Source: the human T2T-CHM13v2.0 reference genome, Homo sapiens
Length of the DNA stretch: 64,000 nt
Direction: 5' to 3' (one strand)
Assembly (NCBI RefSeq): GCF_009914755.1
Contig: NC_060939.1
Both the position numbers and the translations under genes were made by a program. The notes under the pieces were generated by a model. It made no database searches. It was not told where the DNA came from and saw only the letters and a list, made by a program, of their open reading frames with translations. The stretch's first letter is position 1. The number at the start of each line of letters is the position of its first letter. Below are positions 5,776 to 60,831 of the stretch, in pieces.

Positions 5776-7350
<1,575 letters not shown>

Positions 7351-14217: not shown

Positions 14218-15385
14218 CATAAAATCTCTAGAAAAAAACCTAGGCAATACCATTCAGGACATAGGCATGGGCAAGGACTTCATGTCTAAAACACCTAAAG
14301 CAATGGCAACAAAAGCCACAATTGACAAATGGGATCTAATTAAACTAAGGAGCTTCTGCACAGCAAAAGAAACCACCATCAGAGTGAAAAGGAATCCTAC
14401 AGAATGGGAGAATATTTTTGCAACCTACTCATCTGACAAAGGGCTAATATGAGGAATCCACAATGAACCCAGACTAATTTACAGGAAAAAAAACAACCCA
14501 ATCAAAAAGTGGGAGAAGGATATGAACAGACATTTCTCAAAAGAAGACATTTATGCAGCCAATGAACAAATGAAAAAATGCTCATCTTCACTGGCCATCA
14601 GAGAAATGCAAGTCAAAATCACAATGAGATACCATCTCACAACAGTTAGAATGGTGATCATTAAAAAGTCAGGAAAAAACAGGTGCTGGAGAGGATGTGA
14701 GAAATAGGAACACTTTTGCACTGTTGGTGGGACTGTAAACTAGTTCAACCACTGTGGAAGTCGGTATGGTGATTCCTCAGGGATCTAGAACTAGAAATAC
14801 CATTTGACCTAGCCATCCCCTTACTGGGTATATACCCAAAGGATTATAAATCATGCTGCTATAAAGACACATGCACACGTATGTTTATAGTGGCACTATT
14901 CACAGTAGCAAAGACTTGGAACCAATGTAAATGTCCAACAACTATAGACTGAATGAAGAAAATGTGGCACATATACATCATGGAACACTATGTGGCCATA
15001 AAAAATGATGAGTTCATGTCCTTTGTAGGGACATAGATGAAGCTGGAAACCATCATTCTCAGCGAACTATTGCAAGGACAAAAAATCAAACACCACATGT
15101 TCTCACTCATAGTTGGGAATTGATCAAAGAGAACACATGGACACAGAAAGGGAACCATCACACACCACACACCAGGGACTGTAGTCCGGTATGGGGAGGG
15201 GGAGGGATAGACTTAGGAGATATACCTAATGCTAAATGATGAGTTCATGGGTGCAGCACACAAACATGACACATGTATACATACGTAACAAACCTGCACG
15301 TTGTACACGTTCCCTAAAACATAAAGTATAATAATAATAAAAGTAAATAAATAATTTATTAAACCGAGAGCTCCAAAATAAAAAT
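14218..15385 (+). mobile_element. 5'-truncated L1PA4-like element (~1.15 kb) with extended double A-rich tail
   Basis: ORF2 fragments [21 protein letters not shown].. and [14 protein letters not shown]..; 3' UTR with gaagctggaaaccatc and aacaaacctgcacgttgt. TSD aagaatg(c/g)ttca at 14206-14217 and 15386-15397. Confidence 0.93.
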
Positions 15386-40400: not shown

Positions 40401-43400
40401 CACATAAAAACTAGACAGAAGAATGCTGAGAACCTTCTTTGTGATATGTGCATTTATCTCACAGATATAAACCTTTTTTTTGGTTGAGCAGTTTTAAAAC
40501 TCTCTTTTTGTAGGATCTGCAAGTGGACATTTGGAGTGCTTTGAGGCCTAAGGTGGAAAAGGGAATATGTTCACATAAAAACTAGACAAAATAATTCTGA
40601 GAAACTTCTTTGTGATGTGTGCGTTCATCTCACAGAGTTGAACCTTTCTTTTGATTGAGCAGTTTGTAAACACATTTCTTGTACAATCTGCATGTGGACA
40701 TTTGGAGCGATTTGAGGCCTATGGCACAAAAGGAAATATCTTCACATAAAATCTAGACACAAGCAATCTGAGAAACTTCTTTGTGATGTGTGCATTCATG
40801 TCACAGAGTTAAACCTTTCTTTTGATTGAGCAGTTTTGAAACACTCTTTTGTAGAATCTACAAGTGCAGATTAAGAAACCTTTGTGGCCTATTGTGAAAA
40901 ACGAAATACCTTCACATAAAAACTAGACAAAAGAATTCTGAGTAACTTCTTTGTGAAGCATGCATTCATCTCACAGAGTTGAACCTTTCTTTTGATTGAG
41001 CAGTTTAGAGACACCCTTTTGTAAAATCTCCCAGTGGACATTGGAGCACTTTGCGGCCTATGGTAGAAAAGGAAATACCTTCACGTAAAGTCTTGACAGA
41101 AGTCTGAGAAACTTCTTTGTGATGTGTGCATTCATCTCAAAGAGTGAAACCTTTCTTTTGATGGAGTAGTTTTGAAATTTTCTTTTTGTGGAATCTGCAT
41201 TTTCACATTGGGAGCGCTTTGAGGCCTAAGGTGGAAAAGGAAATATGTTCACATAAGAACTAGACAGAAGAATTCTGAGAAACTTCTTTGTGATATGTGC
41301 ATCTATCTCACAGAGTTAAACCTTTCTTTTGCTTGAGCACTTTTGAAAGTCTCTTTCTATAGGATCTGCAAGTGGATATTTGGAGTACTTTGAGGCCCAT
41401 GGTGGAAAAGGAAATATCTTAAAATAAAAAATAGGCAGAAGAATTCTGAGAAACTTCTTTGTGATGTGTGTGCTCATCTTACAAAGTTGAACCTTTCCTT
41501 CGATTGGGCAGTTTGGAATCACTCTTTTTGTAGAATCTGCAATTGGACGTTTGGAGGGCTTTGCGGCCTATGGTAGAAAAGGGAAAATCTTCACAGAAAA
41601 TCTAGCAGAAGCAATCTGAGAAACTCCTTGGAGATGTGTGCATTCATCCCACAGAGATAAAACTTTCTTTTGATTGAGCAGTTTTGAAACTCTCTTTTTG
41701 TAGAATCTGCAAGTGGTCATTTGGAGTTCTTGGAGGCCTATGGTGGAAAAGGAAATATCTTCACATAAAATCTAGACAAAAGCAATCTGGGAAACTACTT
41801 TGTGATGTGTGCATTCATCTCACAGAGTTAAACTTTTCTTTTCATTGAGCAATTTTGAAATTCTCTTTCTGTAGAATCTGCAAGTGGACATTTGGAGCGC
41901 TTTCAGGTCTATGGTGGAAAAGGATATATCTTCACATAAATACTAGACAGAAGAATTCTGAGAAACTTCTTGGTGATGTGTGCATTCATCTCACAGAGTA
42001 GAACCTTTCTTTTGACTGAGCAGCTTGGAAACACTCTTTTTGTAGAATCTGCACTTGGACATTTGGAGCTCTTTGCAGCCTATGGTAGTAAAAAAAAATC
42101 TTCACATAAAATCTAGACAGAAGCAATCTGATAAACTTCTTTGAGATGTGTGCATTCAACTCACAGAGTTAAACTTTTTTTTTTTTGATTGAGCAGTTTG
42201 GAAACTCTCTTTTTGTAGAATCTGCAAGCAGACATTTGGAGTAGTTTGAGGCCTATGGTTGAAAAGGAAATATCTTCACATAAAAACAAGACAGAAGAAT
42301 TATGAGAAACCGCTTTGTGATGTGTGAATTCCTCTCATGTAGTTGCAACTTTCTTTTGATTTAGCAGTATGGAGACACTCTTTTTGTAGAATCTGCAAGT
42401 GGATATTTGAAGCGCTTTGAGGCCCATGGTGGAAAAGGAAATATCTTAAAATAAAAAATAGGCAGAAGAATTCTGAGAAACTTCTTTGTGATGTGTGCGT
42501 TCATCTCACAAAGTTGAACCTTTCCTTCGATTGAGCAGTTTGGAAACACTCTTTTTGTAGAATCTGCAAGTGGACGTTTGGAGCGCTTTGTGGCCTATGG
42601 TAGAAAAGGAAAAATCTTCACGTAAAATCTAGACAGAAGCAATCTGAGAAACTTCTTTGAGATGTGTGCATTCATCCCACAGAGTGAAAACTTTCTTTTG
42701 ATTGAGCAGTTTTGAAACTCTCTTTTTGTAGAATCTGCAAGTGGACATTTGGAGTACTTGGAGGCCTACGGTGGAAAAGGAAATATCTTCACAAAAAAAC
42801 TAGATAGAAGAATTCTGAGAAACCTCTTTGTGATGTGTGCATTTATCTCACAGAGTTGAACCTTTCTTTTGATTGAGCAGAATTGAAACAATGTTTTTGT
42901 AGAATCTACAAATGCATATTTGGAGTGTTTGGGGCCAATGGCCGAAAAGGAAATATCTTCACATAAAATCTAGACAAAAGCAATCTGGGAAACTTCTTTT
43001 TGATGTGTGCATTCATCTCACAGAGTTAAACCTTTCTTTTGATTGAGCAGTTTTGGAATTCTCTTTCTGAAGAATGTGCAAGTGGACATTTGGAGTGCTT
43101 TGAGGTCTATGGTGGAAAAGAAAATATCTTCACATAAATACTAGACAGAAGAATTCTGAGAAACTTCTTTGTGTTGTGTGCGTTTATCTCACAGAGTTGA
43201 ACCTTTCTTTTGATAGAGCAGTTTGGAAACACTTTTTTTGTAGAATCTGCAAGTGGACATTTGGTTCACCTTTTGGCCTGGGTTAGAAAATGAAATACCT
43301 TCACATAAAATCTAGACAGAAGCAATCTGAGAAACTACTTTGTGGTGTGTGCATTCATCTCACAGTGTTAAATATTTCTTTTCATTGAGGAGTTTTCAGG

Positions 43401-44323
43401 CTCCCTTTCTGTAGAATATGCAAGTGGACATTTGAGGTGCTTTGTGGAATACGGTGGAAAACGAAATATCTTCACATAAAAACTAGATAGAAGAATTCTG
43501 AGAAACTTCCCTGTTATGTTTAGGTACATCTCACCGAGTTGAACCTTTGTTTTGATTCAGCATTTTGGAAACAATCTTTTAGTAGATTCTGCAAGTGGAC
43601 ATTTGGAGCGCTTTGTGGCCTATGTCAGAAAAGGTAAGATCCTCACATAAAATCTAGACAGAAGCAATCTGAGAAACTCCTTTGTGATGTGTGCATTAAC
43701 CTCAAAGAGTTAAAACTTTCCTTTGATTGAGGAGATTCAAAGCTCTCTTTTTGTAGAGTCTGCAAGTTTACATTTGGAGCACTTTGAGGACCATGGTGGA
43801 AAAGGAAATAACATAAAAACTAGGCAGAAGAATTCTGAGAAACTTCTTGGTGATGTGTGCATTCATCTCGCAGAGTAGAATCTTTCCTTTGACTGAGCAG
43901 TTTGGAAACACTCTTTTTGTAGAATCTGCTATTGGACATTTGGAGCGCTTTGCAGCCTATGGTAGTAAAAAAGAAAATCTTCACAAAAAATCTAGACAGA
44001 AGCAATCTGATAAACTTCTTTGAGATGTGTGCATTCAATTCACAGAATTAAACCTTTTTTGTGATTGTGCATCTTGGAAACTCTCTTTTTGTAGAAGCCG
44101 CAAGCAGACATTTGGAGTACTTTGAGGCATATGATGAAAAAGGAAATATCTTCACATAAAAAAAAGACAGAAGAATTCTGAGAAACAGCTTTGTGATGTG
44201 TGCATTCCTCTCACGGATTTGAAACTTTCTTTTTATTGAGCAGTATGGTGACACTGTTTTTGTAGAATATGTAAGTGGACATTTGGAGCACTTTGAGGTC
44301 CATGGTGGAAAAGAAAATATCTT
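34425..44323 (+). repeat. Alpha satellite, divergent A-box type; layer 2
   Basis: Signature ctgcaagtggacatttggagc...ggtggaaaagg. From ~36.8 kb, monomers largely alternate aaaactagacagaagaattc and aaatctagacagaagcaatc. Confidence 0.97.
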
Positions 44324-44772
44324 TTTTTCTTTTATTATACTTTAAGTTTTAAGGTACATGTGCACATTGTGCAGGTTAGTTACATATGTATACATGTGCC
44401 ATGCTGGTGCACTGCACTCACTAACTCGTCATCTAGCATTAGGTATATCTCCCAATGCTATCCCTCCCCACTCCCCCAACCCCACCACAGTCCCCAGAGT
44501 GTGATATTCCCCTTCCTGTGTCCATGTGACCTCATTGTTCAGTTCCCACCTATGAGTGAGAATATGCAGTGTTAGGTTTTTTGTTCTTGCGATAGTTTAC
44601 TGAGAATGATGATTTCCAATTTCATCCATGTCCCTACAAAGGACATGAACTCATCATTTTTCATGGCTGCATAGTATTCCATGGTGTATATGTGCCACAT
44701 TTTCTTAATCCAGTCTATCATTGTTGGACATTTGGGTTGGTTCCAAGTCTTTGCTATTGTGAATAATGCCAC
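44324..44772 (-). mobile_element. L1PA2-like 3' end (~450 bp), 5'-truncated
   Basis: Poly-T, then ttatactttaagtttt..gtacatgtgcacattgtgcaggttagttac...ctaactcgtcatctagcattagg (= gctagatgacgagttag on the sense strand). Encodes ALFTIAKTWNQPKCPTMIDWIKKMWHIYTMEYYAA. Confidence 0.94.
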
Positions 44773-44926
44773 CCCTTCCTCCCTCACCGCTCCATGTGCA
44801 TCCCTCCTGAAGCTGTGCACTCGGTCGAAGAGGATGACCATCCCCAATAGAAGAGGACCGGTCTTCAGTCAAAGGTATACGAGTAGCTGAGCTCCCCTGG
44901 TAGAACCTCCAAACAAGTTCTCAAGG
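44772..44926 (+). pseudogene. RN7SK: 7SK snRNA retropseudogene fragment (RN7SK nt ~87-241; 5'- and 3'-truncated, tailless)
   Basis: ccccttcctccctcaccgctccatgtgc.tccctcc.gaagctg.gc.ctcggtcgaagagga.gaccatcccc.atag..gaggaccggtcttc.gtcaa.ggtatacgagtagctg.gctcccctg.tagaacctccaaacaag.tctcaagg aligns without gaps to 7SK as I recall it: 12 mismatches in 155 nt, 7 of them CpG transitions. Confidence 0.95.
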
Positions 44927-47328
44927 AAATATTTAAAATAAAAAATAGGCAGAAGAATTCTGAGAAACTTGTTTGTGACGTGTGCATTCATCTCACAAAG
45001 TTCAACCTTTCCTTTGATTGAGCAGTTTAGAAACACTCTTTTTGTAGAATCTGCAATTGGACATTTGGAGCGCTTTGCAGCCTATGGTATAAAAGGAAAA
45101 ACCTTCACATAAAATCCAGACAGAAGCAATCTGAGAAACTTTTTTAAGATGTGTGCATTCATCCCACAGAGTTAAACCTTTCTTTTGATTGAGCAGTTTT
45201 GAAACTCTCTTTTTGTAGAATCTGCAAGTGGCCATTTGGAGTACTTGGAGGCCTATGGTGGAAAAGGAAATATCTTCACATAAAAACTAGAGAGAAGAAT
45301 TCTGAGAAACCTGTTTGTGATGTGTGCATTTATCTCATGGAGTTGAATCTTTCTTTTGATTGAGAAGCATGGGGACACTGTTTTTGTAGAATCTGCAAGT
45401 GGACATTTGTAACACTTTGCATCCTATGGCGGAATAGGAAATGTCTTCACCTAAAATCTAGACAAAAGCAATCTGAGAAAATTTTGTGATGTGTGCATTC
45501 ATCTCACAGAGTTAAAATTTTCTTTTGATCGAGCAGTTCTGAAACTCTCTTTTTGTAGAATCTGCAAGTGGCCATTTGGAGTACTTTGAGGCCTATGGTG
45601 GAAAAGGAAATATCTTCACATAAAAAATAGGCAGAAGAATTCTTAGAAACTTCTTTGTGATGTGTGCATTCATCCCACAAAGTTGAACCTTTATTTTCTT
45701 GAGCAGTATGGAAACAGTATTTTTGTCAAAGCTGCTAGTGGATTTTGGAGAGCTTTGCAGTTCATTGAATAAAAAAAAGTATCTTCACATTAAATCAAGA
45801 CAGAAGCAATCTGAGAAAGTACTTTGTGATGTGTGCATTCATCTCACAGAGTTATAATTGTCTTTTCATTGAGCAATTTTGAAACTCTCTCCTTGAAGAA
45901 TCAGTAAGTGGACGTTTGGAGTGCCTTGAGGCCTATGATGGAAAAGGAAATATCTTCACATAAACACTAGACAGTAGATTTCTGAGAAACTTCTTTCTGA
46001 TGTGTGCATTCACCTCAAAAATTTAAACATTTCTTTTGATTGGGAGTTTTGAAACTCTCTTTTTGTAGAATCTGCAAATGGACATTTGGAGAGCTTGGAT
46101 GCTTATGATGGTAAAGAATATATCTTCAAATAAAAACTAGGTAGAAGAATCCTGAGAAACTTCTTTGTGGTGCGTGCGATCGTTTTTAGGCCTATGGTGG
46201 AAAAGGAAATATCTTCACATAAAAACTAGACAGAAGATTTCTGAAAAACTTCTTTGTGATGCTGGCGTTCATCTCACACAGTTGAATCTTTCCTTTGATT
46301 TAGCAGTTTGGAAACACTCTTTTTGTAGATTCTGCAAGTGGACATTTGGAGCACCTTCCAGCCTAAGATAGAAAACGAAATATCTTTACATAAAATCTAG
46401 ACAGAAGCAATATGAGAAACTTCTTAGTGAAGTGTTCATTCACCTCAAGGAGTTAAACCTTCTTTTTATTGAGGAGGTTTGAAACTCTCCTTTCATAGAA
46501 TCTTCAAGTGGACATTTGGAGGGCTTTGAGGACCATTGTGGAAAGGAAATATCTTCACATAAAAACTAGACAGAAGAATTCTGAAAAACTTCTTTGTGAT
46601 GTGTGCATTCATCTCACAGAGTTAAACATTTCTTTTGATTGAGGAATTTTGAAACTCTCTTTTTGTAGATCTGAAATTGGATATTTTGAACACTTTGAGG
46701 CCTATAGTGGGAAAGGAAATATCTTCACATAAAAACTAGACAGAAGAATTCTGAGAAACTTCTTTGTGATGTGTGCATTCATCTCACAGAGTTGAACCTT
46801 CCTTTTGATTGAGCAGTTTGGAAATACTCTTTTTGTAGAACCTGCAAGTGGACATTTTGTGTGCTTTGCAGCCTATGTTATAAGAAAAATATCTTCACAT
46901 AAAATCTAGACTGAAGCAATCTGACAAAATACTTTGTAATGTGTGCATTCGTCTCACAGAGTTAAACCTTTCTTTTGATTGAGCAGTTTTGAAACTCTCT
47001 TTTTGTAGAATCTGCAAGTGGACATTTGGAGTCCTTTGAAGCCTATGGTGGAAAAAGAACTATCTTCACATAAAAACTAGACAGAAGAATTCTGAGAAAC
47101 TTCTCTTTGATGCGTGCATTCATCTCACTGAGTTGATCCTTTCTTTTGATTCAGCAGTTTGGAAACACTCTTTTTGTAGAATCTGTATGTGGACATTTGG
47201 AAGGCTTTGCTGCCTATCTTAGAAAAGGAAATATCTTCACATAGAATGTAGACAGAAGCAATCTGAGAAACTTCTTTGTGATGTGTGCATTCATCTCACA
47301 GAGTTAAACCTCTCATTTGTTTGAGCAG
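44923..47328 (+). repeat. Alpha satellite, layer 2 continued
   Basis: Resumes in register at aaggaaatatttaaaataaaaaataggcagaag and ends at ttgagcag (47328). Confidence 0.96.
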
Positions 47329-47338
47329 GCTCTCCCCA

Positions 47339-50300
47339 GTGAGTTGAATGCACACACCACAAAGAAGTTTCTCAGAATGTTTCTGTGTAGTTTTTATTTG
47401 AAGATATTTCCTTTTCCACAATAGGCCTCAAAGCTCTCCAAATATCCACTTGCTAATTCTTCAAAAAGATTGCTTCAACACTGCTCTATAAAAAGGAAGT
47501 TTCAACTCCATTAGATGACTGCACACATCACAAAGAAGTTTCTCAGAATGGCTCTGCGTAGTTTTTATATGAAGATATTTCCTTTTCCACAATAGGCTTC
47601 AAAGGGCTCCAATTACCTACTTGCAGAATCTTCAAAAAGAGTGTTTCAGAAGTGCTCAATCAAAAGAAAAGTTAAAATCCGTGAGATGAATGCATACATC
47701 ACAAAGAAGCTTCTCAGAATACTTCTGTCTTGTTTTTATGTGAAGATATTTGATTCTCCACTGTAGGCAACAAGGCACTCCACATATCCACTTTCAGATT
47801 CTATAAAAAGGTGTTTTGAAACTGCTCAATCATAAGATAGGTTCAACCTTGTGAGATGAATGCACACATCACAAAGTAGTTTCTCAGAATGTTTTTATGT
47901 AGTTTTTATTTGAAGATATTTCCTTTCCCACCATTGGCCACAAAAAGCTCCAAACTTCCACTTGCAGATTCTACAAAAAGAGAGATTCAAAACTGTTCAA
48001 TCAAAAGATAGTTTCAACTCTGCGTGTTGAATGCACACATCACAAAGAAGCTTCTGTGTTGTGTTTGTTTATGTGAAGATATTTGCTTTTCCACTACAGG
48101 GCGAAATAGGGCTCCAAATATCCACCTGCAGATTCTGCAAAAAGGGAGATTCAAAACTGCGCAATCAAAAGATATGTTCAACTATGTGAGTTGAATGCAC
48201 ACAAAACGAAGTTTCTCAGAATGCCTCTGTGTAGCTTTTATGTGAAGATATTTGATTTTCCACAGTAGGCCTCAAAGGGCTCCAAATATCCACTTTCAGA
48301 TTCTGAAATAAGAGAGATTCAAAACTGCTCAATCAAATAATAGGTTCAACTCTGTGAGTTGAATGCACACCTCACAAATAAGTTTCTCATAAAGTTTCTG
48401 TGTAGTTTTTATGTGAAGATATCTCCTTCTCCAAAATAGGCCTCAAAGACCTCCAAATGTGCACTTCCAGATTCTATGAAAAGAGTGTTTCAAAACTGCT
48501 CAATCCAAAGAAATATTCAACACTGTGTGGTGAATGCACTCATCACAAAGAAGTTTCTCTGAATGCTTCTGTGTATTTTGTATTTGAAGATATTTCCTTT
48601 TCCACCATAGGGCTCATAGGGCTCCAAATATCCACTTGCAGATTCTATAAAAAGAAAGATTCTAAACTGCTCTATCAAAAGATAGTTTCAGCTCTGAGTT
48701 GAATGCACACTTCACAAAGAAGTTTCTCAGAATGCTTCTGTGTAGTTTTTAGGGGAAGATATTTCCGTTTCCACTATAGGCCTCAAATAGCTCCAAATAT
48801 CCACTTGAACAATCTACAAAAAGAGTGTTTCAAAACTGCTTAATCAAAAGAAACGTTCAACACTTTGAGATGAATGCACACGTCACAAAGAAGTTTCTCA
48901 GAATGTTTCTGTGTAGTTTTTATGTTAAGATATTTGCTTTTCCACGGAAGGCCTCAAAGTGCTCCAAATATCCACTTGCAGATTCTACAAAAACAGTGTT
49001 CCAAAACTGCTCAATCAAAAGAAACGTCCAACACTGTGAGATGAATGCACACATCACAAAGTAGTTTCTCAGAACCCTTCTGTGTAGTTTTTATGTGAAG
49101 ATATTTGCTTTTCCATGGAAGGTCTCAAAGCGCTCCAAATATCCACTTGCAGATTCTACAAAATGAGTGTTTCAAAACTGCTCAATCATTAGATAGGTTC
49201 AACCCTGTGAGAAGAATGCACACATAACAAAGTAGTTTTTCAGAATGCTTCTATGTAGTTTTTATTTGAAGGTATTTCCTTTTCCACCATAGGTCGCAAG
49301 GGGCTCCAAATATCCACTTGCAGATTCTACAAAAAGAGAGATTCTAAACTGCACAATCAACAGATAGGTTCAACTCTGTGAGTTGAATGCACACATCACA
49401 AAGTAATTTCTCAGAATGGTTCTGTTTAGTTTTTATGTGAAGATATTTGCTTTTCCATAGTAAGCCTCAAAGGTCTCCAAATATCCACTTGGAGAATCTG
49501 CAAAAAGAGAGTTTCAAAACTCCTCATTCAAAAGATAAGTTCAACTCTGTGAGTTGAATGCACACATCACAAAATAGTTTCTCAGGATGCTTCTGTGTAG
49601 TTTTTATGTGAAGATATTTGATTTTCCACATTAGGCCTCAAAGTGCTCCAAATATCCACTTGCAGATTCTGCAAAAAGAGAGATTAAAAACTGCTCAGTC
49701 CAAAGATTGGTTCAGCTCTGTGAGATAAATGCACACCTTTCAAAGAAGTTTCTCAGAATGCTTCTGTGTAGTTTTTATGTGAAGATATCTCCTTCTCCAA
49801 AATAGGCCTCAAATGCTCCAAATATCCACTTCCAGATTCTATGAAAAGAGTGATTCAAAACTGTTCTCTCCAAAGAAAGTTTCAACTCTGTGTGATGAAT
49901 GCACTCATAACAAAGAAGTTTCTCTGTATCTTTTGTGTATTTTTTATTTAAAGATATTTCCTTTTCCACCATAGGGCTCATATGGCTCAAAATATCCACT
50001 TGCAGATTCTGCAAAAACAGGGATTCTAAACAGCTCAATCAAAAGAGAGGTTCAACACTGTCAGTTGAATGCACACATCACAAAGAAGTTTTCAGAATGC
50101 TTCTGTATAGTTTTTATGTGAACATATATCCTTTTCCACCATAGGCCTCAAATGGTTCCAAATATCCCGTTGCAGTTTCTACAAAAAGAGAGCTTCAAAC
50201 CAGCTCCATCGAAAGATATGTTCAACTCTGTGAGTTGAATGCACACATCACAAAGAAGTTTCTCAGAATGTTTCTGTGGAGTTTTTATTTGAAGATATTT

Positions 50301-53300
50301 TCTTTTCCACAATAGGCCTCAAATCTCTCCAAATATCCACTCACAGATTCTGCACAAAGAGAGATTCAAAACTGCTCAATCAAAAGATATGTCCAACACT
50401 TTGAGTTGAATGCACACCTCACAAAGAAGTTTCTCATAATTCTTCTGTGTAGTTTTTATGTGAAGATATCTCCTCCTCCAAAATAGGCCTCAAAGCCCTC
50501 CAAATATCCACTTCCACATTCTACAAAGAGTGTTTAAAAGCTTCTCAATCCAAGGAAAGGTTCAACTCTGTGAGTTGAATGCACACATAACCAAGAAGTT
50601 TCTCAGAATGCTTCTGTGTGGTTTTTATCTGAAAATATTTGCTTTTCCATGGTAGGCCTCAAAGCCAAATATCCACTAGCTGATTATTCAAAGAGTGTTT
50701 TAAAACTGCTCAATCATAAGATAGGTTCAACCCTGAGAGATGAATGCACACATCAAAAAGATGTTTCTCAGAATGCTTCTGTATAGCTTTTAGTTGAGGA
50801 TATTTCCTTTTCCACCATAGGCCACAAAGGTCTCCAAATATCCACTTTCAGATTCTACAAAAAGAGAGATTAAAAACTGCTCAATCAAAAGATAAGTTCA
50901 ACTCTGTGAGTTGAATGCACACATCACACAGAAGTTTCTAAGAAGGCTTCCATGGAGTGTTTACGTGAAGATATTTGCTTTTCCACAGTAGGCCTCAAAC
51001 GGCTCCAAATATCCACTTGCAGATTCTGCAAAAAGAGAGATTCAAAACTGCTCAATTAAAACATAGGCTCAACTCTGTGAGTTAAACGCACACATGACAA
51101 AGCACATTCTCAGAATACTTCTGTGAAGTTTTTAGGTGAAGATATTTTCTTTTCAAAAATAGACCACAAATCCCTCCAAATATCTACTTCCAGATTCTAC
51201 AAAAAGAGTGTTTCAAAACTGCTGAATCAATGAAAGGTTCCACTCTGTTTGATGAATGCACTCTTCACAAAGAAGTTTCTCTGAATGATTCTGTGTAGTT
51301 TTTATTTGAAGATATTTCCTTTTCCACCATAGGGCACAAAAGGCTCCAAATACCCACTTGCAGATTCTACAAAAAGAGAGATTCAAAACTGCTCAATCAA
51401 AAGATAGGTTCAACTGTGTGAGTTGAATGCACACATCACAGAGTAGTTTCTCAGAATGCTTTTGTGTAGTTTTTATGTGAAGATTCTACGTTTTCCACAG
51501 TAGGCATCAAATCGCTCTAGATATAGACTTACAGATTCTTAAAAAAGAGTGTTTCAAAACTGCTCAATCAAAAGAAAGTTTCAACTGTGTCAGATGAATG
51601 CACACATCACAAAGGAGTTTCTAAGAATGTTTCCGTGTAGTGTTTATGTGAAGATATTTGCTTTTCCACTGTAGGCCTCAAAGCGCTCCAAATATCCACT
51701 TGCAGATTCTACAAAAATAGTGTTTCAAAACTGCTCAATCAAAAGAAAGGTTCAACTCTGTGGGATGAATGCACACATCACAAAGCAGTTTCTCAGAATG
51801 CTTCTGTGTAGTTTTTATGTGAAGATATTTCCTTTTCCACGGTAGGCCCCAATGTGCTGCAAATATACACTTGCATATTCTACAAAAAGAGTGGTTCTAA
51901 ACTGCTAAATCATAAGATAGGTTCAACCCTGTGAGATGAATGCACACATCACAAAGATGTTTCTCAGAATGCTTCTGTGTAGTTTTTATGTGAAGATTTT
52001 TTTCCATGATAGGCCTCCTTGCGCTCTGAATATCCACTTGCAGATTCTACAAAAAGAGAGATTCAAAACTGCTCAATCAAAAAATAGGTTCAACTCTGTG
52101 AATTGAATGCACACATCACAAAGAAGTTTCTCAGAATGCTTCTGTGTAGTTTTTATTTGAAGATATTTTCTTTTCCACAATAGGCCTCAAAGCTCTCCAA
52201 ATATCCACTTGCAGATTCTACAAAAAGAGAGATTCAAAACTGCTCAATGAAAAGATACATTCAACTCTGTGAGTTGAATGCACACCTCACAAAGAAGTTT
52301 CTCAGAATGCTTCTGTGTAGTTTTCATGTGAAGACATTTCGTTTTCCACACTAGGCCTCAAAGCTCTAAAATATCCCCTTGCAGATTCTGCAAAATGAGT
52401 GTTTCAAAACTGCTCAATCAAACGAACAGTTCAACTCTGCGTGATGAATGCACTCACCACAAGGGAGTTTCTCTGAATGCTTCTGTGTATTATTTATATG
52501 AAAATATTTCCTTTTCCACCATGATCCGCAAAGGGCTCCAAATATCCACTTGCAGATTCTACAAAAAGAGAGTTTCAAAACTGCTCTATCAAGGCACATG
52601 TTCAAATCTCTGATATGAAAGCACACATCACAAAGAAATTTCTCAGAATGCCTCTTTGTAGTTTTTATGTGAAGATATTTCCTTTTACGCAATAGATCTC
52701 AAAGCGCTCCATGTATCCACTTGCAGATACTACAAAAAGAGTGTTTCCAAACTGCTCAATCAAAAGAGAGATTTCACTCTGTGAGATGAATGCACACATC
52801 ACAAAGAAGATTCACAGAATGTCTCTGTGTAGTTTTTATGTGAAGATATTTCCTTTTCCACTGTAGGCCTCAAAGCGCTTCACATATCCACTTGCAGGTT
52901 CTACAAAAAGAGTGTTTCAAAACTGCTCAATAAAAAGAAAGGTTCAACTCTGTGAGATGAATGCACACATCACAAAGAAGTTTCTCAGAATGCTTCTGTG
53001 TAGTTTTTATGCTGAAGATATTTCCTTTTCCACAATAGGCCTCAAAGCTCTCCAAGTATCCACTTGCAGATTTTAATAAAGTAGAGTTTCCAAACTGCTC
53101 AATCAAAAGAGAGGTTCAGATCTGTGAGATGAATGCCCACATCACAAAGAAGTTTCTCAGAATGCTTCTGTGTAGTTTTTATGAGATGATATTTCCTTTT
53201 CCAACATGAGCCACAAAGGGCTCCAAATGTCCACTTGCAGATCCTACATAAAAAGAGTATCAAAACTGCTCAATAAAAGGAAAGGTTCAACTCTGTGAGA

Positions 53301-56300
53301 TGAACGCACACATAACAAAGAAGTTTCTGAGAATGCATCCTTGTAGTTTTTATGGGAAGATATCTCCTTTTCCACCATCGGCCACTTATGGCTCAAAGTA
53401 TCCACTTTGAGATTCTATGAAAAGAGTGTTTCAAAACATTACAATCTAATGCAATATTCAAAACTGTGAGATGAATGCACACATTAGAAAGAAGTTTCTC
53501 AGAATGCTTCTGTGTAGTTTTTAGGTGAAGATATTTCCTTTTCCACCATAGGCAACAAAGGGCTCCAATTTTGCACTTGGAGATTCTACATAAAGAGAGT
53601 TTCAAAACTGCTCTATGAAAAGATGGGTTCAGCTCTGTGAGTTGAATGCACACATCACAAAGAAGTTTCTCAGAATGCTTCTGTGTATTTTTTGTGTGAA
53701 GATATTTCCTTTTCCACAATGGACCTCGAAGTGCTCCAAATATCCACTTGTAGAATCTACAAAAGAGTGTTTCAAAACTGCTCAATAAATTGAAATGTTC
53801 AAGTCTGTCAGGTAAATGCACACATCAGTAAGAAGTTTCTCAGAATGCATCTGTGTAGTTTTTATGGGAAGATATTTTATTTTTCACAATCAGCCACAAA
53901 TGGCTCCAAATAACCACCTGCAGTTTCTACAAAAAGAGAGTTTCAAAACTGCTCTATCAAAAGATAAGTTAAACTCGGCGAGTTGAATGCACACATCACA
54001 AAGAAGTTTCACAGAATGCTTCTGTGTAGTTTTTATGGGAAGATATTTCCTTTTCCACCATAAGCCTCAAAGCACTCCAAATATCCACTTGGAGAATAAA
54101 ATAAAAAAGAGTGTTTCACAACTGATCAATGAATTGCAAGGTTCAACTCTGTGAGATGAATACACACATCACAAAGAAGTTACTTCTAATGCTTCTGGGT
54201 CGTTTTTATGGAAAGATATTTCGTTCTCCACCACTGGCCACAAAGAGCTCCAAATAACCAATTGCAGATTCAACAAAAAGAGAGTTTCAAAACTGCTCTA
54301 TCAAAAGAAATATTCAACTTTGCGAGTTGAATGCACACATCACAAAGAAGATTCTCAGAATGCTTCTGTGTAGTTTTTATGTGAAAATATTAGTTTTTCC
54401 GGGTTTCAAAACTGCTCTATGAATAGATAGGTTCAACTCTCTTAGATGAATGCACACATCAGGAAGAAGTTTCTCAGAATTCTTCCGTGTAGTTTTTTTG
54501 TGAAGATATTTTTTATTCCACTGCAGGCCTCAAAGCACTCCAAATATCCACTTGCAGTTTCTACAAAAAGAGTGTCTAAAAACTGCTCAATCAAGAGAAA
54601 ATTTCAAATGTGTGAGATGCATGCACACATCACAAAGAAGTTTCTAAGAATGCTTCTGTTTAGTTTTTATGTGAAGATATTTCCTTTTACACCAGATGCC
54701 TCAATGCACTCCAAATATTCACTTGCAGATTCTACAAAAAGAGTGTTTCCAAACTGCTCAAACAATAGAAAGGTACAACTCTGTCAGATTAATGCACACA
54801 TCACATAGATGTTTCTCAGAATGCTTCTGTGTAGTTTTTATGTGAAGATATTTCCTTTTCCACAATAGGCCACCAAGGGCTCCAAATATCCACTTGCAGA
54901 TTCTACTAAAAGTGTGTTTCTAAACTGCTCTATCAAAAGAAAGGTTCAACTCTGTGTGATGAATGCATACAACTCAAACAAGTTTCTCAGAATGCTTCTC
55001 TGTAGTTTTTATGTGAAGATATTTCCTTTTCCACCATAGGTCTCAAATCGCTCCAAATATCCACTTGCAGATTCCATAAAAAATGTGTTTCAAAGCTACT
55101 CAATCAATAGAAACGTGCAACTCTGAGTGATGAATGCACACATCACAAAGATGTTTGTCAGAATGTTTCTGTGTAGTTTTTATGTGAAGATATTTCCTTT
55201 TCCAGTATAGGCCGCAAATGCCTCCGAATATCCACTTGCAGACTCTACACCAAGAGAGTTTCAAAATTGGTCTATGAAAAGATAGGTTCAACTCTGTGAG
55301 TTTAATGCACACATCACAAAGTAGTTTCTCAGAATGCTTCTGTGTAGTTTTTAAGTGAAGATATTTCCTTTTCCACAATAGGCCACAAAGTTCTCCAAAT
55401 GTCCTCTTGCAGATTCTACAAAAATTTAGTTTCAAAACTGCTCTCTCAAAAGATAGGTTCAACTCTGTGAGATGAATGCAGACATCACAAAGAAGTTTCT
55501 CAGAATGCCTCTGTGTACTTTTTCTGTGAAGATATTTCCTTTTCCAGTTTAGGTCTCAAAGCCCTCCAAATATCCACTTGCAGATTCTACGTAAAGGTTT
55601 TTTCAAAACAGCTCAATCTATTGAAAGTTTCAACACTGTGAGATGAATGCAAACATCACAAAGAAGTTTCTCAGTATGCTTTTGTGTAATTTTTATAGGA
55701 AGATATTTCCTTTTCCTCCATCGGCCACAAAGGCCTCCCAATATCCACTTGCAGATTCTACAAAAAGAGAGTTTCAAAACTGCTCTATCTAAAGATATTT
55801 TCAACTCTGAAAGTTCAATGCAGACAACACAAAGAAGTTTCTCAGACTGCTTCTGTGTAGATTTTATGTGAAGATATTTCCTTTACCACCATAGGACCCA
55901 AAGTGCTCCACATAGCCACTTGCAGATTCTACAAAAAGAGAGATTCTAAACCACTCTAACAAAAAATAGGTTCAACTCTGTGAGTTGAATGTATACATCA
56001 CAAAGAAGTTTCTCAGAATGCTTCTGTGTAGTTGTTATGTGAAGATATTCCGCTTTCCACCATAATCCTCAAAGCGCTTCAAATATCCACTTGTAGATTC
56101 TTCAAAAAGAGGGATTCCAAACTGCTCAATCAAAAGAAATGTTCAACACTCTGAGATGAAAGCACACATCAAAAAGAAGTTTATCAGAATGTTTCTGTGC
56201 AGCTTTTATGTGAAGATATTTCCTTTTCCACAAAAGGGCGTAAAGGGCTCCAAATATCCACTTTCAGATCCTACAAAATGGGAGTTTCAAAACTGCTTCA

Positions 56301-59300
56301 CCAAAAGATAGCTTCAACTCTGTGAGTTGAAGGCACACATCATAAAGAAGTTTCTCAGAATGCTTCTGTGTTGTTTTTATGTGAAGATATTGCCTTTTCC
56401 ACAATAGGACTCAAAGCGCTCCAAATATCCACTTGCAGATTCTACAAAAAGAGTGTTTCAAAACTGGTCTATCAAGAGACTGGTTCAACACTGTGAGTTG
56501 AATGCAAACATCACAAAAAAGTTCTCAGAATGCTTCTATGTGGTTTTTATGTGAAGATATTTTTTTTCCACCTTAGGCCACAAATGGCTTCAAATATCTA
56601 CTTGAAGATTCTACAAAAAGAGAGTCTCAAAACTGCTGTATCGAAAGGTACGATCAACACTGTGAATTGAATGCACACATCACAAAAAAGTTTCTCAGAA
56701 TGCTTCTGTGTAGTTTTTATGTGAAGATATTTCCTTTTCCACCATTGGCCACAAATGGCTCCAAATATCCAGTTGCGGATTCTACAAAAAGAGAGTTTCA
56801 AAACTGCTCTATCAAAAGATAGGTTCAACTATGTGAGTTCAATTCACACTTCACTAAGAAGTTTCTCAGAAAGCTTCTGTGTAGTTTTTAGGGGAAGATA
56901 TTTCTTTTTCCACAATAGGACTCAAAACGCTCCAAATATCCAATTGCAGATTCTACAAAAAGAGTGTCTCAATACTGCTCAATTAAAACAAAGGTTCTAC
57001 TCTGAGAGGAATGGACACATCACAGAGAAGTTTCTCAGAATGCTTCTGTGTAATTTTTATGTGAAGATATTTCTTTTTCCACAAGAGGCCTCAAAGTGCT
57101 CCAAATATCCACTTACAGATTGTACAAAAAGATTTTTTCAAAGCTGCTCAATCAAAGGAAAGATTCAACTCTGTGAGATGAACGCAAACATCATAAAGAA
57201 GTGTTTCAGAATGTTTCTGTGTAGTTTGTTTGTGACGATATTTCCTTTCCCACTGCAAGCCACAAAGGGATCCAAATATCCACTTGCAGACTCTACAAAA
57301 AGAGATTTTCAAAACTGCTCATTCTAAGATAGATTCAACTCTGTGATTTGAATGCACTCAGCAATAAGAACTTTCTCAGAATGCTTCTGTGTAGTTTTTA
57401 TGTGCAGATATTTCCTTTTCCACATTACACCTCTTAGCGCTCCAAATATCCACTTGCAGATTCTAAAAAAAGAGTGGTTCAAAACTGCTGGATCAAAAGA
57501 AAAGTTTAACTCTGTGAGATGAGTGAAACTTCTCAAAAAGTTTTCTCAGAATGCTTCTGCGTAGTTTTTATGTGAAGATATTTCCTTTTCCACAATAGGC
57601 CTCAAAGCGCTCCAAATATACACTTGCAGATACTACAAAAAGTGTGTTTCAAAACTGCTCAATCAAAAGAAATGTTCAAATCTGTGTGATGAATGCACAC
57701 ATCACAGGAAACCTCTCAGAATGCTTTTGTGTAGTTTTTATGTGAATATATTTCCTTTTCTACAACAGGCCTCAAAGTGCTCCAAATATCCACTTGCAGA
57801 TTCTACAGAAAGAGTGTTTCAAAGCTCCTCAATCAAAAGAAAGCTTCAACTCTATGAGTCGATGTCTGATGCACACATCACAAAGAAGGTTCTCAGAATG
57901 CTTCTGTGTAGTTTTTATGTGGATATATTTCCTCTTCCACCTTAGGCCACAAAGGGCAACAAATATCCACTTGCAGATTCTACAAAAAGAGAGTTTCAAA
58001 TATGCTCATTCAAAAGATGGGATCAACTCTGTGACTTGAATGCACACATCACAAAGAAATGCCTCTGAATGCTTCTATGTAGTTTTTATGTGAAGATATT
58101 TGATTTTCCATAATAGGCCACAAAACACTCCAAATATCCATTTCAATATTCTACAAAAAGTGTGTTTCCAAATTGCTGAATACAAAGGAAGGTTCATCTC
58201 TGTGAGATGAATGCACACATCACAAAGCAGTTTCTCAGAATGCTTCTGTGAAGTTTTTATGGGAGGATATTTCCTTTTCCAAAATAGGCCTCAAAGCACT
58301 CCAAATGTCCTCTTGCAGATTCTACAAAAAGAGGGTTTCAAGGCTGCTCAATCAAGTGAAAGGTTCACAGCTGTGAGATGAATGCACACATCACAAATGA
58401 GTTTCTCAGAAAGTTTCTGTGTAGTTTTTATGTGAAGATATTTCCTTTTCCACCATAGGACGCAAAGGGCTCCCAATATCCACTTGCAGATTCGACATAA
58501 AGAGAGTATCGAAACTGCTCTACCAAAAGATAAGTTCAACTCTGTGAGTTGAATGCACACACCACAAAGAAGTTTCTCAGAATGCTTCTGTAGAGTTTTT
58601 ATATGAAGATGTTTCCTTTTCCACCATAGGCTGCAAAGGAATCCAAATATCCACTTGCAGATTCAACAAAAAGAGGGTTTCCAAACTGCTCAATCAAAAG
58701 AAAAGTTCAACTCTGTGAGATGAATGCACACATCACAAAGAAGTTTCTCAGAATGCTTCTGTGAAGTTTTTGTGTGAAGATATTTCCTTTTCCACCATAA
58801 GCCTCAAAGTGCTCCAAATATCCACCTGCAGATTCTACAAAAAGGGTGTTTCAAAACTCCTAAATCCAAAGAAGGCTTCAACTCTGTCAGTTGAACGCAC
58901 ACATCACAAAGAAGCTTCTCAGAATGCTTCTGTGTAGATTTATGTGAAGACATTTCCTTTTCCATAATAGGCCTCAAAGTGCTCCAAATATCCACTTGCA
59001 GATTCTGCAAAAAGAGTGTTTCCGAACTGCCCAATCAAAACAAAGTTTCAACTCTGTGAGATGAATGCACACATCATAACGGAGATTCTCAGAATGCTTC
59101 TGTGCAGTTGTTAGGTGAAGATATTTCCTTTTCCAACATAGGCCTCAAAGCGCTGCCACTATCCACGTGCAGATTCTACGAAAGTGAGTTTCAAAACTGC
59201 TCTATCAAAAGATATGTTCAAATGTAAGAGTTGAATTCACGCATCACAAAGAAGTTTCTCAGAATGCTTCTGTGCAGTTTTTATGTGAAGATGTTTCCTT

Positions 59301-59453
59301 TTCCACCATAGGCCTCAAAGCGCTCCTAATATCCACTTGCAGATAGTACAAAAAGATTGTTTCAAAACTGCTCATTCAAATGAAAGTTTCAACTCTGTGA
59401 GATGAATGCATGCATCACAAAGAAATTTCTCAGAATGCTTCTGTGTAGTTTTT
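47339..59453 (-). repeat. Alpha satellite, divergent A-box type; layer 3, inverted orientation
   Basis: Signature cttctgtgtagtttttatgtgaag and ctccaaatatccacttgcag; mixed aagataggttc..gagttgaatgc and aagaaaggttc..gagatgaatgc monomers. Confidence 0.97.
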
Positions 59454-60831
59454 TTACTTTATTATTATTATACTTCAAATTTTAGGGTACATTTCCCCAA
59501 ATTGCAGGTTAGTTACATATGTATACATGTGCCGTGTTGGCGTGCTGCATCCATTAACTCGTCACTTAGCATTAGGTATATCTCCTAAAGCTATCGCTCA
59601 CCTCTCCCCCTACCCCACAACAGTCCCCAGAGTGTGATGTTCCCCTTCCTGTGTCCATGTGTTCTCATTGTTCAATTCCCTCCTATAAGTGAGAATATGC
59701 GGTGTTTGGTTTTTTATTCTTGTGATAGTTTACTGAGGATGATGATTTCCAATTTCATCCATGTTCCTACAAAGGACATGAAGTCATCATTTTTTAAGGC
59801 TGCATAGTATTCCATGGTGTATATGTGCCACATTTTCTTAATCCAGTCTATCATTGTTGGACATTTGTGTTGGTTCCAAGTCTTTCCTATTGTGCATAGT
59901 GCCACAATAAACATACACGTGCATGTGTCTTTATAGCAAGATGATTTATAGCCTTTTGGGTATATACCCAGTAATGGAATGGCTGGGTCAAATGGTATTT
60001 CTTAGTCTAGATCCCTGAGGAATAGCCACACTGACTTCCACAATGGATGACCTAGTTTACAGTCCCACCAACAGTATAAAATTGTTCCCATTTCTCCACA
60101 TCCTCTCCAGCACCTGTTGTTTCCTGACATTTTAATGATTGCCATTCTAACTGGTGTGAGATGGTATCTCATTGTGGTTTTGATTTGCATTTCTCTGATA
60201 GCCAGTGATGGTGAGCATTTTTTCATGTGTTTTTTGGCTGCATGAATGTCTTCTTTTGAGAAGTGTCTGTTCATGTCCTTCACCCACTTTTTGATAGGGC
60301 TGTTTATCTTTTCCTCTAAATTTGTTTGAGTTCATTGCAGATTCTGGATATTATCCCTTTGTCAGATGAGTAAGTTGCCAAAATTTTCTCCATTTTGTAG
60401 GTTGTTTGTTCACTCTGCTGGTAGTTTATTTTGCTGTGCAGAAGCTCTTTAGTTTAATTATATCCCATTTGTCAATTTTGGCTTTTGTTGCCATTGCTTT
60501 TGATGTTTTAGACATGAAGTCTTTGGCCATGAATATGTCCAGAATGGTAATGCCTACGTTTTCTTCTATGGTTTTATGTCTAATGTTTAAATCTTTAATA
60601 CATCTTGAATTAATTTTTGTATAAGGTGTAAGGAAGAGATCCAGTTTCAGCTTTCCACATATGGCTAGCCAGTTTTCTCAGCACCATTAGTTGAATAGGG
60701 AATCCTGTCCCTATTGCTTGTTTTTCTCAGGTTTGTCAAAGAGCAGATAGTTATAGATATGTGGCATTATTTCTGAGGGCCCTATTCTGTTCCATTGATC
60801 TATACCTCTGTTTTGGTATCAGTACGATGCT
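59454..60831 (-). mobile_element. 5'-truncated L1PA3-like element (~1.38 kb)
   Basis: Poly-T/ttattattatac start; ORF2 pieces [23 protein letters not shown].. and MF..ALCTI.KTWNQ.KCPTMIDWIKKMW. TSD tgtgtagttttt at 59442-59453 and 60834-60845; cut site TTTT/A. Confidence 0.94.

What the first reader, a model, noticed from the sequence alone, without database searches (positions are those of the whole stretch)
44311..44934. Head-to-head L1/7SK chimera inside one TSD: apparent twin priming in trans on two different RNAs
Seen: alpha...aagaaaatatctt | polyT + L1PA2-like 3' end (minus strand) | 7SK nt ~87-241 (plus strand) | aaggaaatat-tt aaaata...alpha. One ~13-bp TSD (44311-44323 / 44923-44934) brackets both pieces. 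The empty site (paralogs near 41405 and 42430: ggaaaaggaaatatctt/aaaata) has an L1-endonuclease-type TCTT/AA cut exactly where the poly-T starts. The 7SK 3' end (..CTCAAGG) overlaps the TSD start by 4 nt (AAGG), there is no 7SK tail, and the two 5'-truncated ends meet with 1 nt of overlap. Established: typical small-RNA/L1 chimeras (e.g. U6-L1) are co-oriented, twin priming yields inverted 5' segments from the same L1 RNA, and tailless retropseudogenes are primed internally by target microhomology. Inference: the first nick primed on the L1 poly(A), the second nick (3' end ..CCTT) primed internally on a 7SK molecule, and the two cDNAs were then joined. That implies 7SK was physically present at the L1 RNP during integration.
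Basis: partly seen in the sequence, partly recalled or inferred. Interest (0 to 1): 0.85.

Follow-up and report, generated by a model that had tools for sequence, protein, structure and literature searches.

The report
Inverted 7SK–L1 chimeric retrocopy in satellite
A single retrotransposition event put an L1 tail and a backwards piece of 7SK RNA into alpha satellite, a tidy example of a kind of chimera that was catalogued and explained in print in 2025–2026.

Summary
Window 44324-44771/2 is an L1 3' end on the minus strand: ORF2p residues 1200-1264, the 3'UTR and a ~10-nt A tail. Window 44772-44926 is RN7SK nt 87-241 on the plus strand. One 13-bp duplication, AAGGAAATATCTT, brackets both pieces. 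Three uninterrupted paralogous alpha-satellite sites (two in the window, one on chr20) read ...AAGGAAATATCTT|AAAATA. That gives a canonical TCTT/AAAA nick at the L1 tail.

The 7SK end lies in the apical hairpin loop, and 4 nt of it (AAGG) overlap the duplication. In a sample of 38 other 7SK copies in this genome, 36 end at nt 237-246. This is the known internal-priming site of tailless 7SK retrocopies. Both pieces show equal decay, and all three junctions were unique among the scored matches.

A single event with priming from both nicks on two different RNAs is the best reading (about 0.75).

It is not new as a kind. Law & Burns (Cell Genomics 2026; preprint 2025) list four 7SK/LINE-1 chimeras, three of them antisense and ending at nt 235-238. 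They propose twin priming for antisense RNA/LINE-1 chimeras in general. The presence of 7SK in L1 particles was shown in 2013. This chr15 locus is absent from their hg38-based list. Verdict: a new, clean member of a known kind, of low interest.

The parts
44311..44323 (+). Left copy of the 13-bp target-site duplication (AAGAAAATATCTT). It has one substitution relative to the paralogous empty sites.
44324..44333 (-). Short L1 poly(A) tail (AAAAGAAAAA on the minus strand). It starts exactly at the TCTT/AAAA nick of the reconstructed empty site.
   Evidence: The genomic L1 copies align up to this point.
44334..44771 (-). 5'-truncated L1 3' end: the last ~77 codons of ORF2 (residues about 1199-1275) plus the 3'UTR.
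   Evidence: 97-98% identity to 29 genomic copies. Differs at 10 of 442 positions from their majority. ORF2p residues 1200-1264, E 1.5e-38.
44772..44772 (.). Inner junction: one base that could belong to either L1 or 7SK nt 87 (1-nt microhomology).
44772..44926 (+). 7SK RNA nt 87-241, antisense to the L1 and truncated at both ends. It has no tail.
   Evidence: Rfam RF00100, 110.9 bits. 143/155 identity to the RN7SK gene. 8 of the 12 differences fall in CpG positions.
44923..44926 (+). AAGG shared by 7SK nt 238-241 (apical hairpin loop in the Rfam consensus structure) and the first 4 nt of the right TSD copy. This is the inferred annealing site of the second-nick 3' end (...CCTT-3' on the minus strand).
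   Evidence: The endpoint hotspot is shown.
44923..44934 (+). Right copy of the target-site duplication (AAGGAAATAT-TT). It has a 1-bp deletion relative to the empty sites.
42435..42447 (+). Paralogous uninterrupted target (AAGGAAATATCTT followed by AAAATA) in the neighbouring alpha-satellite unit. A second one lies at 41408-41420.

Best explanation
This is one L1 target-primed reverse-transcription event in an alpha-satellite monomer that used two RNA templates.

Step 1. The L1 endonuclease nicked the plus strand at ATATCTT/AAAATA. The freed T-rich 3' end primed on the poly(A) of an L1 mRNA and copied about 447 nt.

Step 2. The second nick fell 13 bp away on the minus strand and left a 3' end ...TTCCTT-3'. 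That end paired with AAGG (nt 238-241) in the single-stranded apical loop of a 7SK RNA in the same particle. It was extended back to nt 87.

Step 3. The two cDNA ends were joined at a 1-nt overlap, and gap filling produced the 13-bp duplication.

Shown directly: the anatomy, the empty site, the endonuclease-type nick, the microhomologies, the uniqueness of the junctions in this assembly, the equal decay of both pieces, and the match of the 7SK endpoint to the general 7SK priming hotspot.

Inferred: the order of the nicks, that ORF2p itself extended the second primer, and how the two cDNAs were joined.
For: Anatomy.

Empty site. Three uninterrupted paralogs place the two flanks 13 bp overlapping and read AAGGAAATATCTT|AAAATA.

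Geometry. Next to the TSD on the L1's 5' side lies antisense 7SK running from nt 241 down to nt 87, followed by sense L1. This is the twin-priming arrangement described in Kojima 2010 (passages) and in Law & Burns Figure 7 legend.

Endpoint hotspot. I took 38 other 7SK copies chosen only for similarity to nt 87-241. Of these, 36 end at nt 237-246 (25 at 239-240). 29 of 38 have an exact direct repeat of 8 bp or more starting at the 7SK end. The 7SK end here is thus the usual target-primed initiation site, not a random breakpoint.

Structure. Rfam's consensus puts AAGG in a hairpin loop.

Equal age. Non-CpG differences are 7/432 in L1 and 4/129 in 7SK (Fisher p 0.29). Differences in CpG positions are 3/10 and 8/26 (p 1.0).

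Source of the 7SK piece. No 7SK pseudogene matches it better than the gene itself, 92% against 91% or less.

Uniqueness. The inner junction and both outer junctions were found only at this locus among scored candidates.

Precedent. Three of the four published 7SK/LINE-1 chimeras are antisense with 7SK ends at nt 235-238. I re-located one of them in this assembly; it ends at nt 239.
Against: It is a single old locus, so the intermediates cannot be observed.

The 1-nt inner overlap is no better than chance.

A 4-nt overlap is also what microhomology-mediated end joining of a 5'-truncated cDNA would give.

The two TSD copies differ at 2 of 13 positions. That is more than the roughly 2% decay of the L1 piece predicts (about 0.5 differences expected, my estimate). 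The paralogs show each copy carries one private change.

The genome searches scored only 40 of 222, 1335, 1566 and 1608 candidates, so uniqueness is a strong but not exhaustive result.

No orthologous or polymorphic empty allele could be examined, because no other primate or human assembly was available.
Confidence: 0.75

Rival explanations
1. End-joining capture. L1 TPRT proceeded normally from the first nick. A pre-made 7SK cDNA fragment, primed elsewhere, was then ligated as filler between the truncated L1 cDNA and the other chromosome end by (alt-)NHEJ.
For: The short overlaps at both joints (1 nt and 4 nt) are typical of end joining. Orientation would be arbitrary under this model.
Against: The 7SK end next to the TSD sits at the site where 36 of 38 independent retrocopies were target-primed. 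It also overlaps the target by 4 nt. A free cDNA primed at that loop would have needed another primer, and no primer sequence is present.
Confidence: 0.12
2. Retrotransposition in cis of a pre-existing chimeric transcript. A 5'-truncated L1 lying next to an antisense 7SK retrocopy elsewhere was transcribed through. It was copied from its poly(A) and 5'-truncated at 7SK nt 241 by microhomology.
For: 5'-truncation with microhomology is common. A tailless 7SK retrocopy would naturally end near nt 240.
Against: No other locus in the assembly carries the 7SK(nt 87)/L1 junction. The 7SK piece is closest to the RN7SK gene, not to any pseudogene. The truncation would have to coincide by chance with the pseudogene's end.
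Confidence: 0.06
3. Two sequential insertions. A tailless 7SK retrocopy inserted first with the 13-bp TSD. Later an L1 inserted exactly at the left TSD/7SK boundary and deleted 7SK nt 1-86.
For: Standalone tailless 7SK retrocopies with TSDs starting AAG... are common.
Against: The L1 tail would have to land exactly on the older TSD boundary, at a TCTT/GG site, with an 86-bp deletion and no TSD of its own. The first 7SK nick (CCTT/TT) would be a poor endonuclease site, whereas the L1 side is canonical in the empty-site reconstruction. Decay of the two pieces is indistinguishable.
Confidence: 0.04
4. Template switch during first-strand synthesis. The enzyme jumped from L1 RNA onto an antisense 7SK-containing RNA (a transcript running backwards through a 7SK pseudogene) or onto a 7SK cDNA.
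For: Template switching by ORF2p is the accepted route to co-oriented U6/L1 chimeras.
Against: It needs a rare antisense template. The piece matches the gene better than any pseudogene. It does not explain why the copy stops at nt 241 with a 4-nt match to the target.
Confidence: 0.03

Closest known systems
Antisense small-RNA/LINE-1 chimeric insertions, including 7SK/LINE-1 (Law & Burns, Cell Genomics 2026, PMC13174262; Table S3)
   Same: A small-RNA fragment directly abuts the 5' end of a truncated L1 in the opposite orientation inside one TSD. The 7SK 3' end is near nt 235-241. The proposed mechanism is twin priming on a second RNA.
   Different: This locus is not among their four hg38 7SK loci. 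It lies in chr15 pericentromeric alpha satellite of the T2T assembly. The 7SK piece is shorter (nt 87-241 against about 10-238). Its hallmarks are cleaner than those of the published chr2 example, which they score as lacking the endonuclease motif. In this assembly, by my reading of the sequence, that example's L1 does not end in a poly(A).
Classical twin priming / L1 5' inversion (Ostertag & Kazazian 2001, cited from Kojima 2010 and Law & Burns; the original paper was not read)
   Same: An inverted segment sits next to the 5' TSD. There is microhomology between the second-nick end and the RNA, and the two cDNAs are joined at a short overlap.
   Different: The inverted segment comes from a different RNA (7SK), not from the same L1 RNA.
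Tailless 7SK retropseudogenes (Schmitz 2004 as cited; Kojima 2010 PMC2912911; Noll 2015 PMC5322556)
   Same: 3' truncation occurs in a single-stranded loop, there is no A tail, and the target site is complementary to the last nucleotides of the RNA. The endpoint matches that of 36 of 38 copies sampled here.
   Different: Those are standalone, start at nt 1 (37 of 38 sampled start at nt 1-3) and are primed at the first nick. Here the copy is 5'-truncated, fused to an L1, and placed at the second nick.
U6/L1 chimeras (template switch or RtcB RNA ligation)
   Same: A small nuclear RNA and a 5'-truncated L1 lie in one TSD.
   Different: U6 is full-length and co-oriented with the L1. Here the orientation is opposite, so neither ligation nor a simple template switch applies.

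Membership tests
L1 endonuclease-dependent TPRT insertion | Target-site duplication of 7-20 bp flanking the whole insert | tested here: met
   13 bp. The overlap of the flanks is confirmed on three uninterrupted paralogs.
L1 endonuclease-dependent TPRT insertion | Nick at a TTTT/AA-like site where the poly(A) begins | tested here: met
   The empty site reads ATATCTT/AAAATA. The consensus motif is taken from Noll 2015 and Law & Burns.
L1 endonuclease-dependent TPRT insertion | Poly(A) tail at the 3' end of the L1 | tested here: met
   The tail is short, AAAAGAAAAA at 44324-44333.
Twin priming (classical, one L1 RNA) | Inverted segment adjacent to the 5' TSD, its TSD-proximal end corresponding to the more 3' RNA position | tested here: met
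   Antisense 7SK runs from nt 241 down to nt 87, counted from the TSD.
Twin priming (classical, one L1 RNA) | Both segments derive from the same L1 RNA | tested here: not met
   The inverted segment is 7SK. This is therefore the two-template variant.
Twin priming (classical, one L1 RNA) | Microhomology at the second priming site and at the inversion junction | tested here: inconclusive
   There are 4 nt at the priming site, which is informative. There is 1 nt at the inner junction, which is not above chance.
Antisense RNA-repeat/LINE-1 chimera (Law & Burns 2026) | [quoted passage not shown] | tested here: met
   0 bp gap, 13-bp TSD, TCTT/AAAA. The criteria are from the Table S3 legend.
Antisense RNA-repeat/LINE-1 chimera (Law & Burns 2026) | Contemporaneous arrival of both parts shown by a multi-species alignment | not testable with these tools
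   No other primate assembly was available. The substitutes were equal decay of the two pieces and paralogous empty sites.
Tailless 7SK retropseudogene | 3' end in a single-stranded region, no A tail, target complementary to the RNA's last nucleotides | tested here: met
   Nt 241 lies in the hairpin loop. There is an AAGG overlap with the TSD. The endpoint matches 36 of 38 sampled copies.
Tailless 7SK retropseudogene | Standalone copy bounded on both sides by its own TSD | tested here: not met
   The 5' side abuts L1 at nt 87, and the TSD encloses both pieces.
U6/L1-type co-oriented chimera | Small RNA in the same orientation as the L1 | tested here: not met
   7SK is on the plus strand and L1 on the minus strand.

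The most novel reading that the evidence does not exclude
The apical-loop UCAAGG of 7SK may be a preferred landing pad for any pyrimidine-rich DNA 3' end made by ORF2p, at the second nick as well as the first. This could arise because the 7SK snRNP is held on the ORF2p endonuclease domain; HEXIM1 bound ORF2p EN in the two-hybrid screen of Goodier 2013. If so, antisense 7SK/L1 chimeras would record that ORF2p, or a second ORF2p, performs second-nick priming while non-L1 RNAs remain docked. Their frequency relative to standalone tailless 7SK copies would then measure how often the second nick is used as a primer.
Probability: 0.12. Interest if true: 0.5.

Novelty: new member of a known kind. Interest (0 to 1): 0.2.

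Why it matters
It adds one well-preserved example to a very small published set: four 7SK/LINE-1 chimeras, three of them antisense. The locus lies in T2T-only satellite sequence. It has all the hallmarks: a 13-bp TSD, a canonical nick, a tail, and 4-nt primer/loop complementarity.

The side result may be more useful. In this genome 36 of 38 sampled 7SK retrocopies end at nt 237-246, the same loop where the antisense chimeras end. This ties the chimeras to target-primed initiation rather than to random breakage.

It does not open a new question. The mechanism, the RNA partner and the presence of 7SK in L1 particles are all already in print.

Tried and rejected
1. Pfam on the 65-aa ORF2 piece gave no family. 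A neighbouring copy's upstream frame gave only a sub-threshold RVT_1 tail (21 bits against a 29.6 cut-off). L1 identity was settled instead by the match to solved ORF2p structures.

2. Rfam search of the genome returned only forced full-length alignments, which are useless for endpoints. I replaced it with BLAST of 38 fetched loci.

A 30-nt pattern search (177 matches, first 100 listed) located only the chr2:7.16 Mb locus. The chr2:22.9 Mb and chr12:57.9 Mb loci were not located or checked.

4. Literature search failed on a too-short term and was not repeated.

6. Subfamily naming (L1PA2 against PA3 or PA4) was not attempted, because no repeat library was available.

7. I considered and rejected the idea that the 'TSD' is merely a periodic alpha-satellite phase overlap. 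The best paralogs of both flanks are consecutive and overlap by exactly 13 bp at three independent sites.
Full report
WHAT IS THERE

The plus strand of window 44311-44934 reads, in order:
- alpha satellite ending ...GGTGGAAAAGAAAATATCTT;
- a short T run;
- antisense L1;
- sense 7SK;
- AAGGAAATATTT AAAATAAAAAATAGG... alpha satellite.

7SK piece. Rfam's 7SK model matches at 110.9 bits, E 2e-29. The RN7SK gene of the same assembly lies at C6:52835189-52835519 (403.5 bits). Against it, window 44772-44926 aligns without gaps to nt 87-241 at 143/155 identity.

L1 piece. The minus strand of 44324-44770 matches 39 other scored genomic places at 97-98% identity, out of 1335 first-look candidates. Its reading frame gives LINE-1 ORF2p residues 1200-1264, 62 of 65 identical by my count from the printed alignment, E 1.5e-38 against solved ORF2p structures. 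The piece is therefore the last ~77 codons of ORF2, the 3'UTR and a ~10-nt A tail.

Inner junction. The 29 fetched copies read ...TTGCGGCATT where the window reads ...GGGGTGGCATT. L1 thus extends to 44771, with one CpG decay. Base 44772 could belong to either piece, giving a 1-nt overlap.

IS THE TSD REAL IN A PERIODIC SATELLITE?

Yes. The 524 bp left of the insert has its best paralog at window 41918-42447 (89.9%). The 528 bp right of it has its best paralog at 42435-42962 (90.7%). These are adjacent stretches that overlap by exactly 13 bp.

A closer paralog on C20:31717700-31718700 behaves the same way. The left flank is 94.8% identical to positions 25-527 and the right flank 93.5% to positions 515-1001.

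All three uninterrupted sites read GGTGGAAAAGGAAATATCTT|AAAATAAAAAATAGG. The target was AAGGAAATATCTT. The left copy has since taken a G-to-A change and the right copy has lost the C. The plus-strand nick, ATATCTT/AAAATA, is a good L1 endonuclease site and lies exactly where the L1 tail starts.

ONE EVENT OR TWO?

Neither piece has a TSD of its own.

Decay is the same in both pieces. Against the majority of its 29 nearest copies, the L1 piece has 7 differences in 432 non-CpG positions and 3 in 10 CpG positions. Against the gene, the 7SK piece has 4 in 129 and 8 in 26. Fisher p values are 0.29 and 1.0.

The inner junction and both outer junctions were found only at this locus. The searches scored 40 of 222, 40 of 1335, 40 of 1566 and 40 of 1608 candidates. 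No paralog carries one piece alone, and no source locus carries the same chimera, within those limits.

No 7SK pseudogene matches the piece better than the gene does, 92% against 91% or less. The template was therefore bona fide 7SK RNA, or a source since lost.

THE 7SK ENDPOINT

The 38 non-self, non-gene hits were selected only on nt 87-241, so they are unbiased as to what follows. I fetched all of them and aligned the full gene to each.
- 36 of 38 end at nt 237-246. The counts are 237:1, 238:2, 239:11, 240:14, 241:3, 242:1, 243:1, 245:2, 246:1. The other two end at nt 270 and nt 327.
- 37 of 38 start at nt 1-3.
- 29 of 38 have an exact direct repeat of 8 bp or more that begins at the 7SK end. 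The repeat often overlaps the UCAAG of the RNA.

In Rfam's consensus structure these nucleotides lie in a 13-nt hairpin loop.

This is the class of tailless, internally primed retropseudogenes. Noll et al. 2015 report 139 tailless 7SK copies truncated at defined single-stranded positions (abstract and passages; their supplementary table was not seen). Kojima 2010 reports tailless 7SK copies (passages).

So the end of the 7SK piece at nt 241, with AAGG shared with the TSD, is the ordinary target-primed start site of 7SK cDNA. What differs is that the primer here is the second-nick end (minus strand ...CCTT-3'). The first-nick end was used by the L1 poly(A). The alternative order, 7SK first, would need a CCTT/TT nick, which is a poor endonuclease site.

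MECHANISM

In L1 orientation the order is TSD, antisense 7SK from nt 241 down to nt 87, sense L1, A tail, TSD. This is exactly the twin-priming arrangement with the inverted segment taken from another RNA. I put this at about 0.75.

The rivals are:
- end-joining capture of a free 7SK cDNA (0.12);
- retrotransposition of a pre-existing chimeric transcript (0.06);
- two sequential insertions (0.04);
- a template switch onto an antisense template (0.03).

The reasons for and against each are given in the Rival explanations section. The main reservations on the best reading are as follows. The 1-nt inner overlap is uninformative. The 4-nt overlap is also compatible with microhomology-mediated joining. 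The TSD copies differ at 2 of 13 positions. No orthologous empty allele could be examined.

WHAT IS KNOWN

A full-text search for 'twin priming' plus '7SK' found four papers and listed two.

Law & Burns (Cell Genomics 2026, PMC13174262; bioRxiv 2025). I read the abstract, passages, sections 11 and 18, and part 1 of 3 of Table S3.
- They report 7SK RNA among five newly found partners of LINE-1 chimeras.
- They find that 5S, U5, tRNA and some mRNA partners are mostly antisense.
- They propose that antisense chimeras arise by twin priming, with two reverse-transcription reactions from the two ends of the break (Figure 7 legend).
- Their 7SK sheet lists four hg38 loci. Three are antisense to the L1: 7SK:15-238 with L1PA7, 10-235 with L1MA3, and 12-238 with L1PA7. 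One is co-oriented, 185-243, with an SVA.
- The chr15 locus is not listed. Their pipeline uses hg38 and the 470-way alignment, and the text does not mention T2T, centromeres or satellites (0 occurrences each).

I located their first locus in this assembly at C2:7162858-7163080. There the 7SK is antisense and covers nt 16-239 at 199/224 identity. By my reading of the sequence (not a tool result), the L1 there stops before its normal end and has no poly(A). This agrees with their 'EN motif: No'. The chr15 copy is therefore a cleaner specimen.

Goodier et al. 2013 (PMC3753637, passages).
- They recovered 7SK RNA, HEXIM1, MEPCE and CCNT1 with L1 particles.
- They found HEXIM1 as the strongest two-hybrid partner of the ORF2p endonuclease domain.
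- They mention 160 7SK pseudogenes with TSDs.

VERDICT

The mechanistic reading is sound and is somewhat strengthened by the endpoint survey. The kind of element and its explanation are already published. It is a new, well-preserved member of a known kind, and the interest is low (0.2).

The most novel reading still open is that the 7SK loop is a specific landing pad because the 7SK snRNP is tethered to the ORF2p endonuclease domain. I put this at about 0.12.

Noticed in passing
window 41406-42962: The alpha satellite here has a three-monomer (about 513-515 bp) higher-order periodicity. Successive units at 41406-41932, 41918-42447 and 42433-42959 are 84-91% identical to the flanks of the insert.
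   Followed up: partly
L073 (G000:C20:31717700-31718700): A chr20 pericentromeric alpha-satellite stretch is closer to the insert's flanks (93.5-94.8%) than any paralog inside the window (91% or less). This suggests an interchromosomal duplication of this satellite block that predates, or escaped, the insertion. Similar 91-94% matches lie on C13, C14, C21 and C22 short-arm/pericentromeric coordinates.
   Followed up: partly
window 6887-7334 (-), 14890-15342 (-), 59465-59905 (+): Three further L1 3' ends lie in the window. They are older relatives of the one studied (90.9%, 82.9% and 89.8% identity to it).
   Followed up: no
window about 48900-62400: Paralogs of the flanks match on the minus strand from about 48.9 kb onward and on the plus strand before about 47.2 kb. 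The alpha-satellite array therefore changes orientation between those points.
   Followed up: no
L071/L072 (G000:C2:7162700-7163250 and 7164050-7164350): This is the published chr2 7SK/L1PA7 chimera. 7SK nt 16-239 lies antisense and directly abuts the L1. By eye, the L1 homology stops at ...CCTAATGCTA with no poly(A), so its TPRT hallmarks are weaker than those of the chr15 locus.
   Followed up: partly
L052 and L053 (G000:C22:21958384-21959535 and C22:21802323-21803474): Two 7SK retrocopies have identical endpoints, identical flanks and equal identity to the gene (91.6%). They are one insertion copied by a chr22 segmental duplication, so the 38-copy survey holds 37 independent events.
   Followed up: no
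L036 (G000:C11:30385567-30389012): An unrelated L1 copy is 5'-truncated within about 3 nt of the truncation point seen in the window (...CTTTTGCGGCATT). This is probably coincidence.
   Followed up: no
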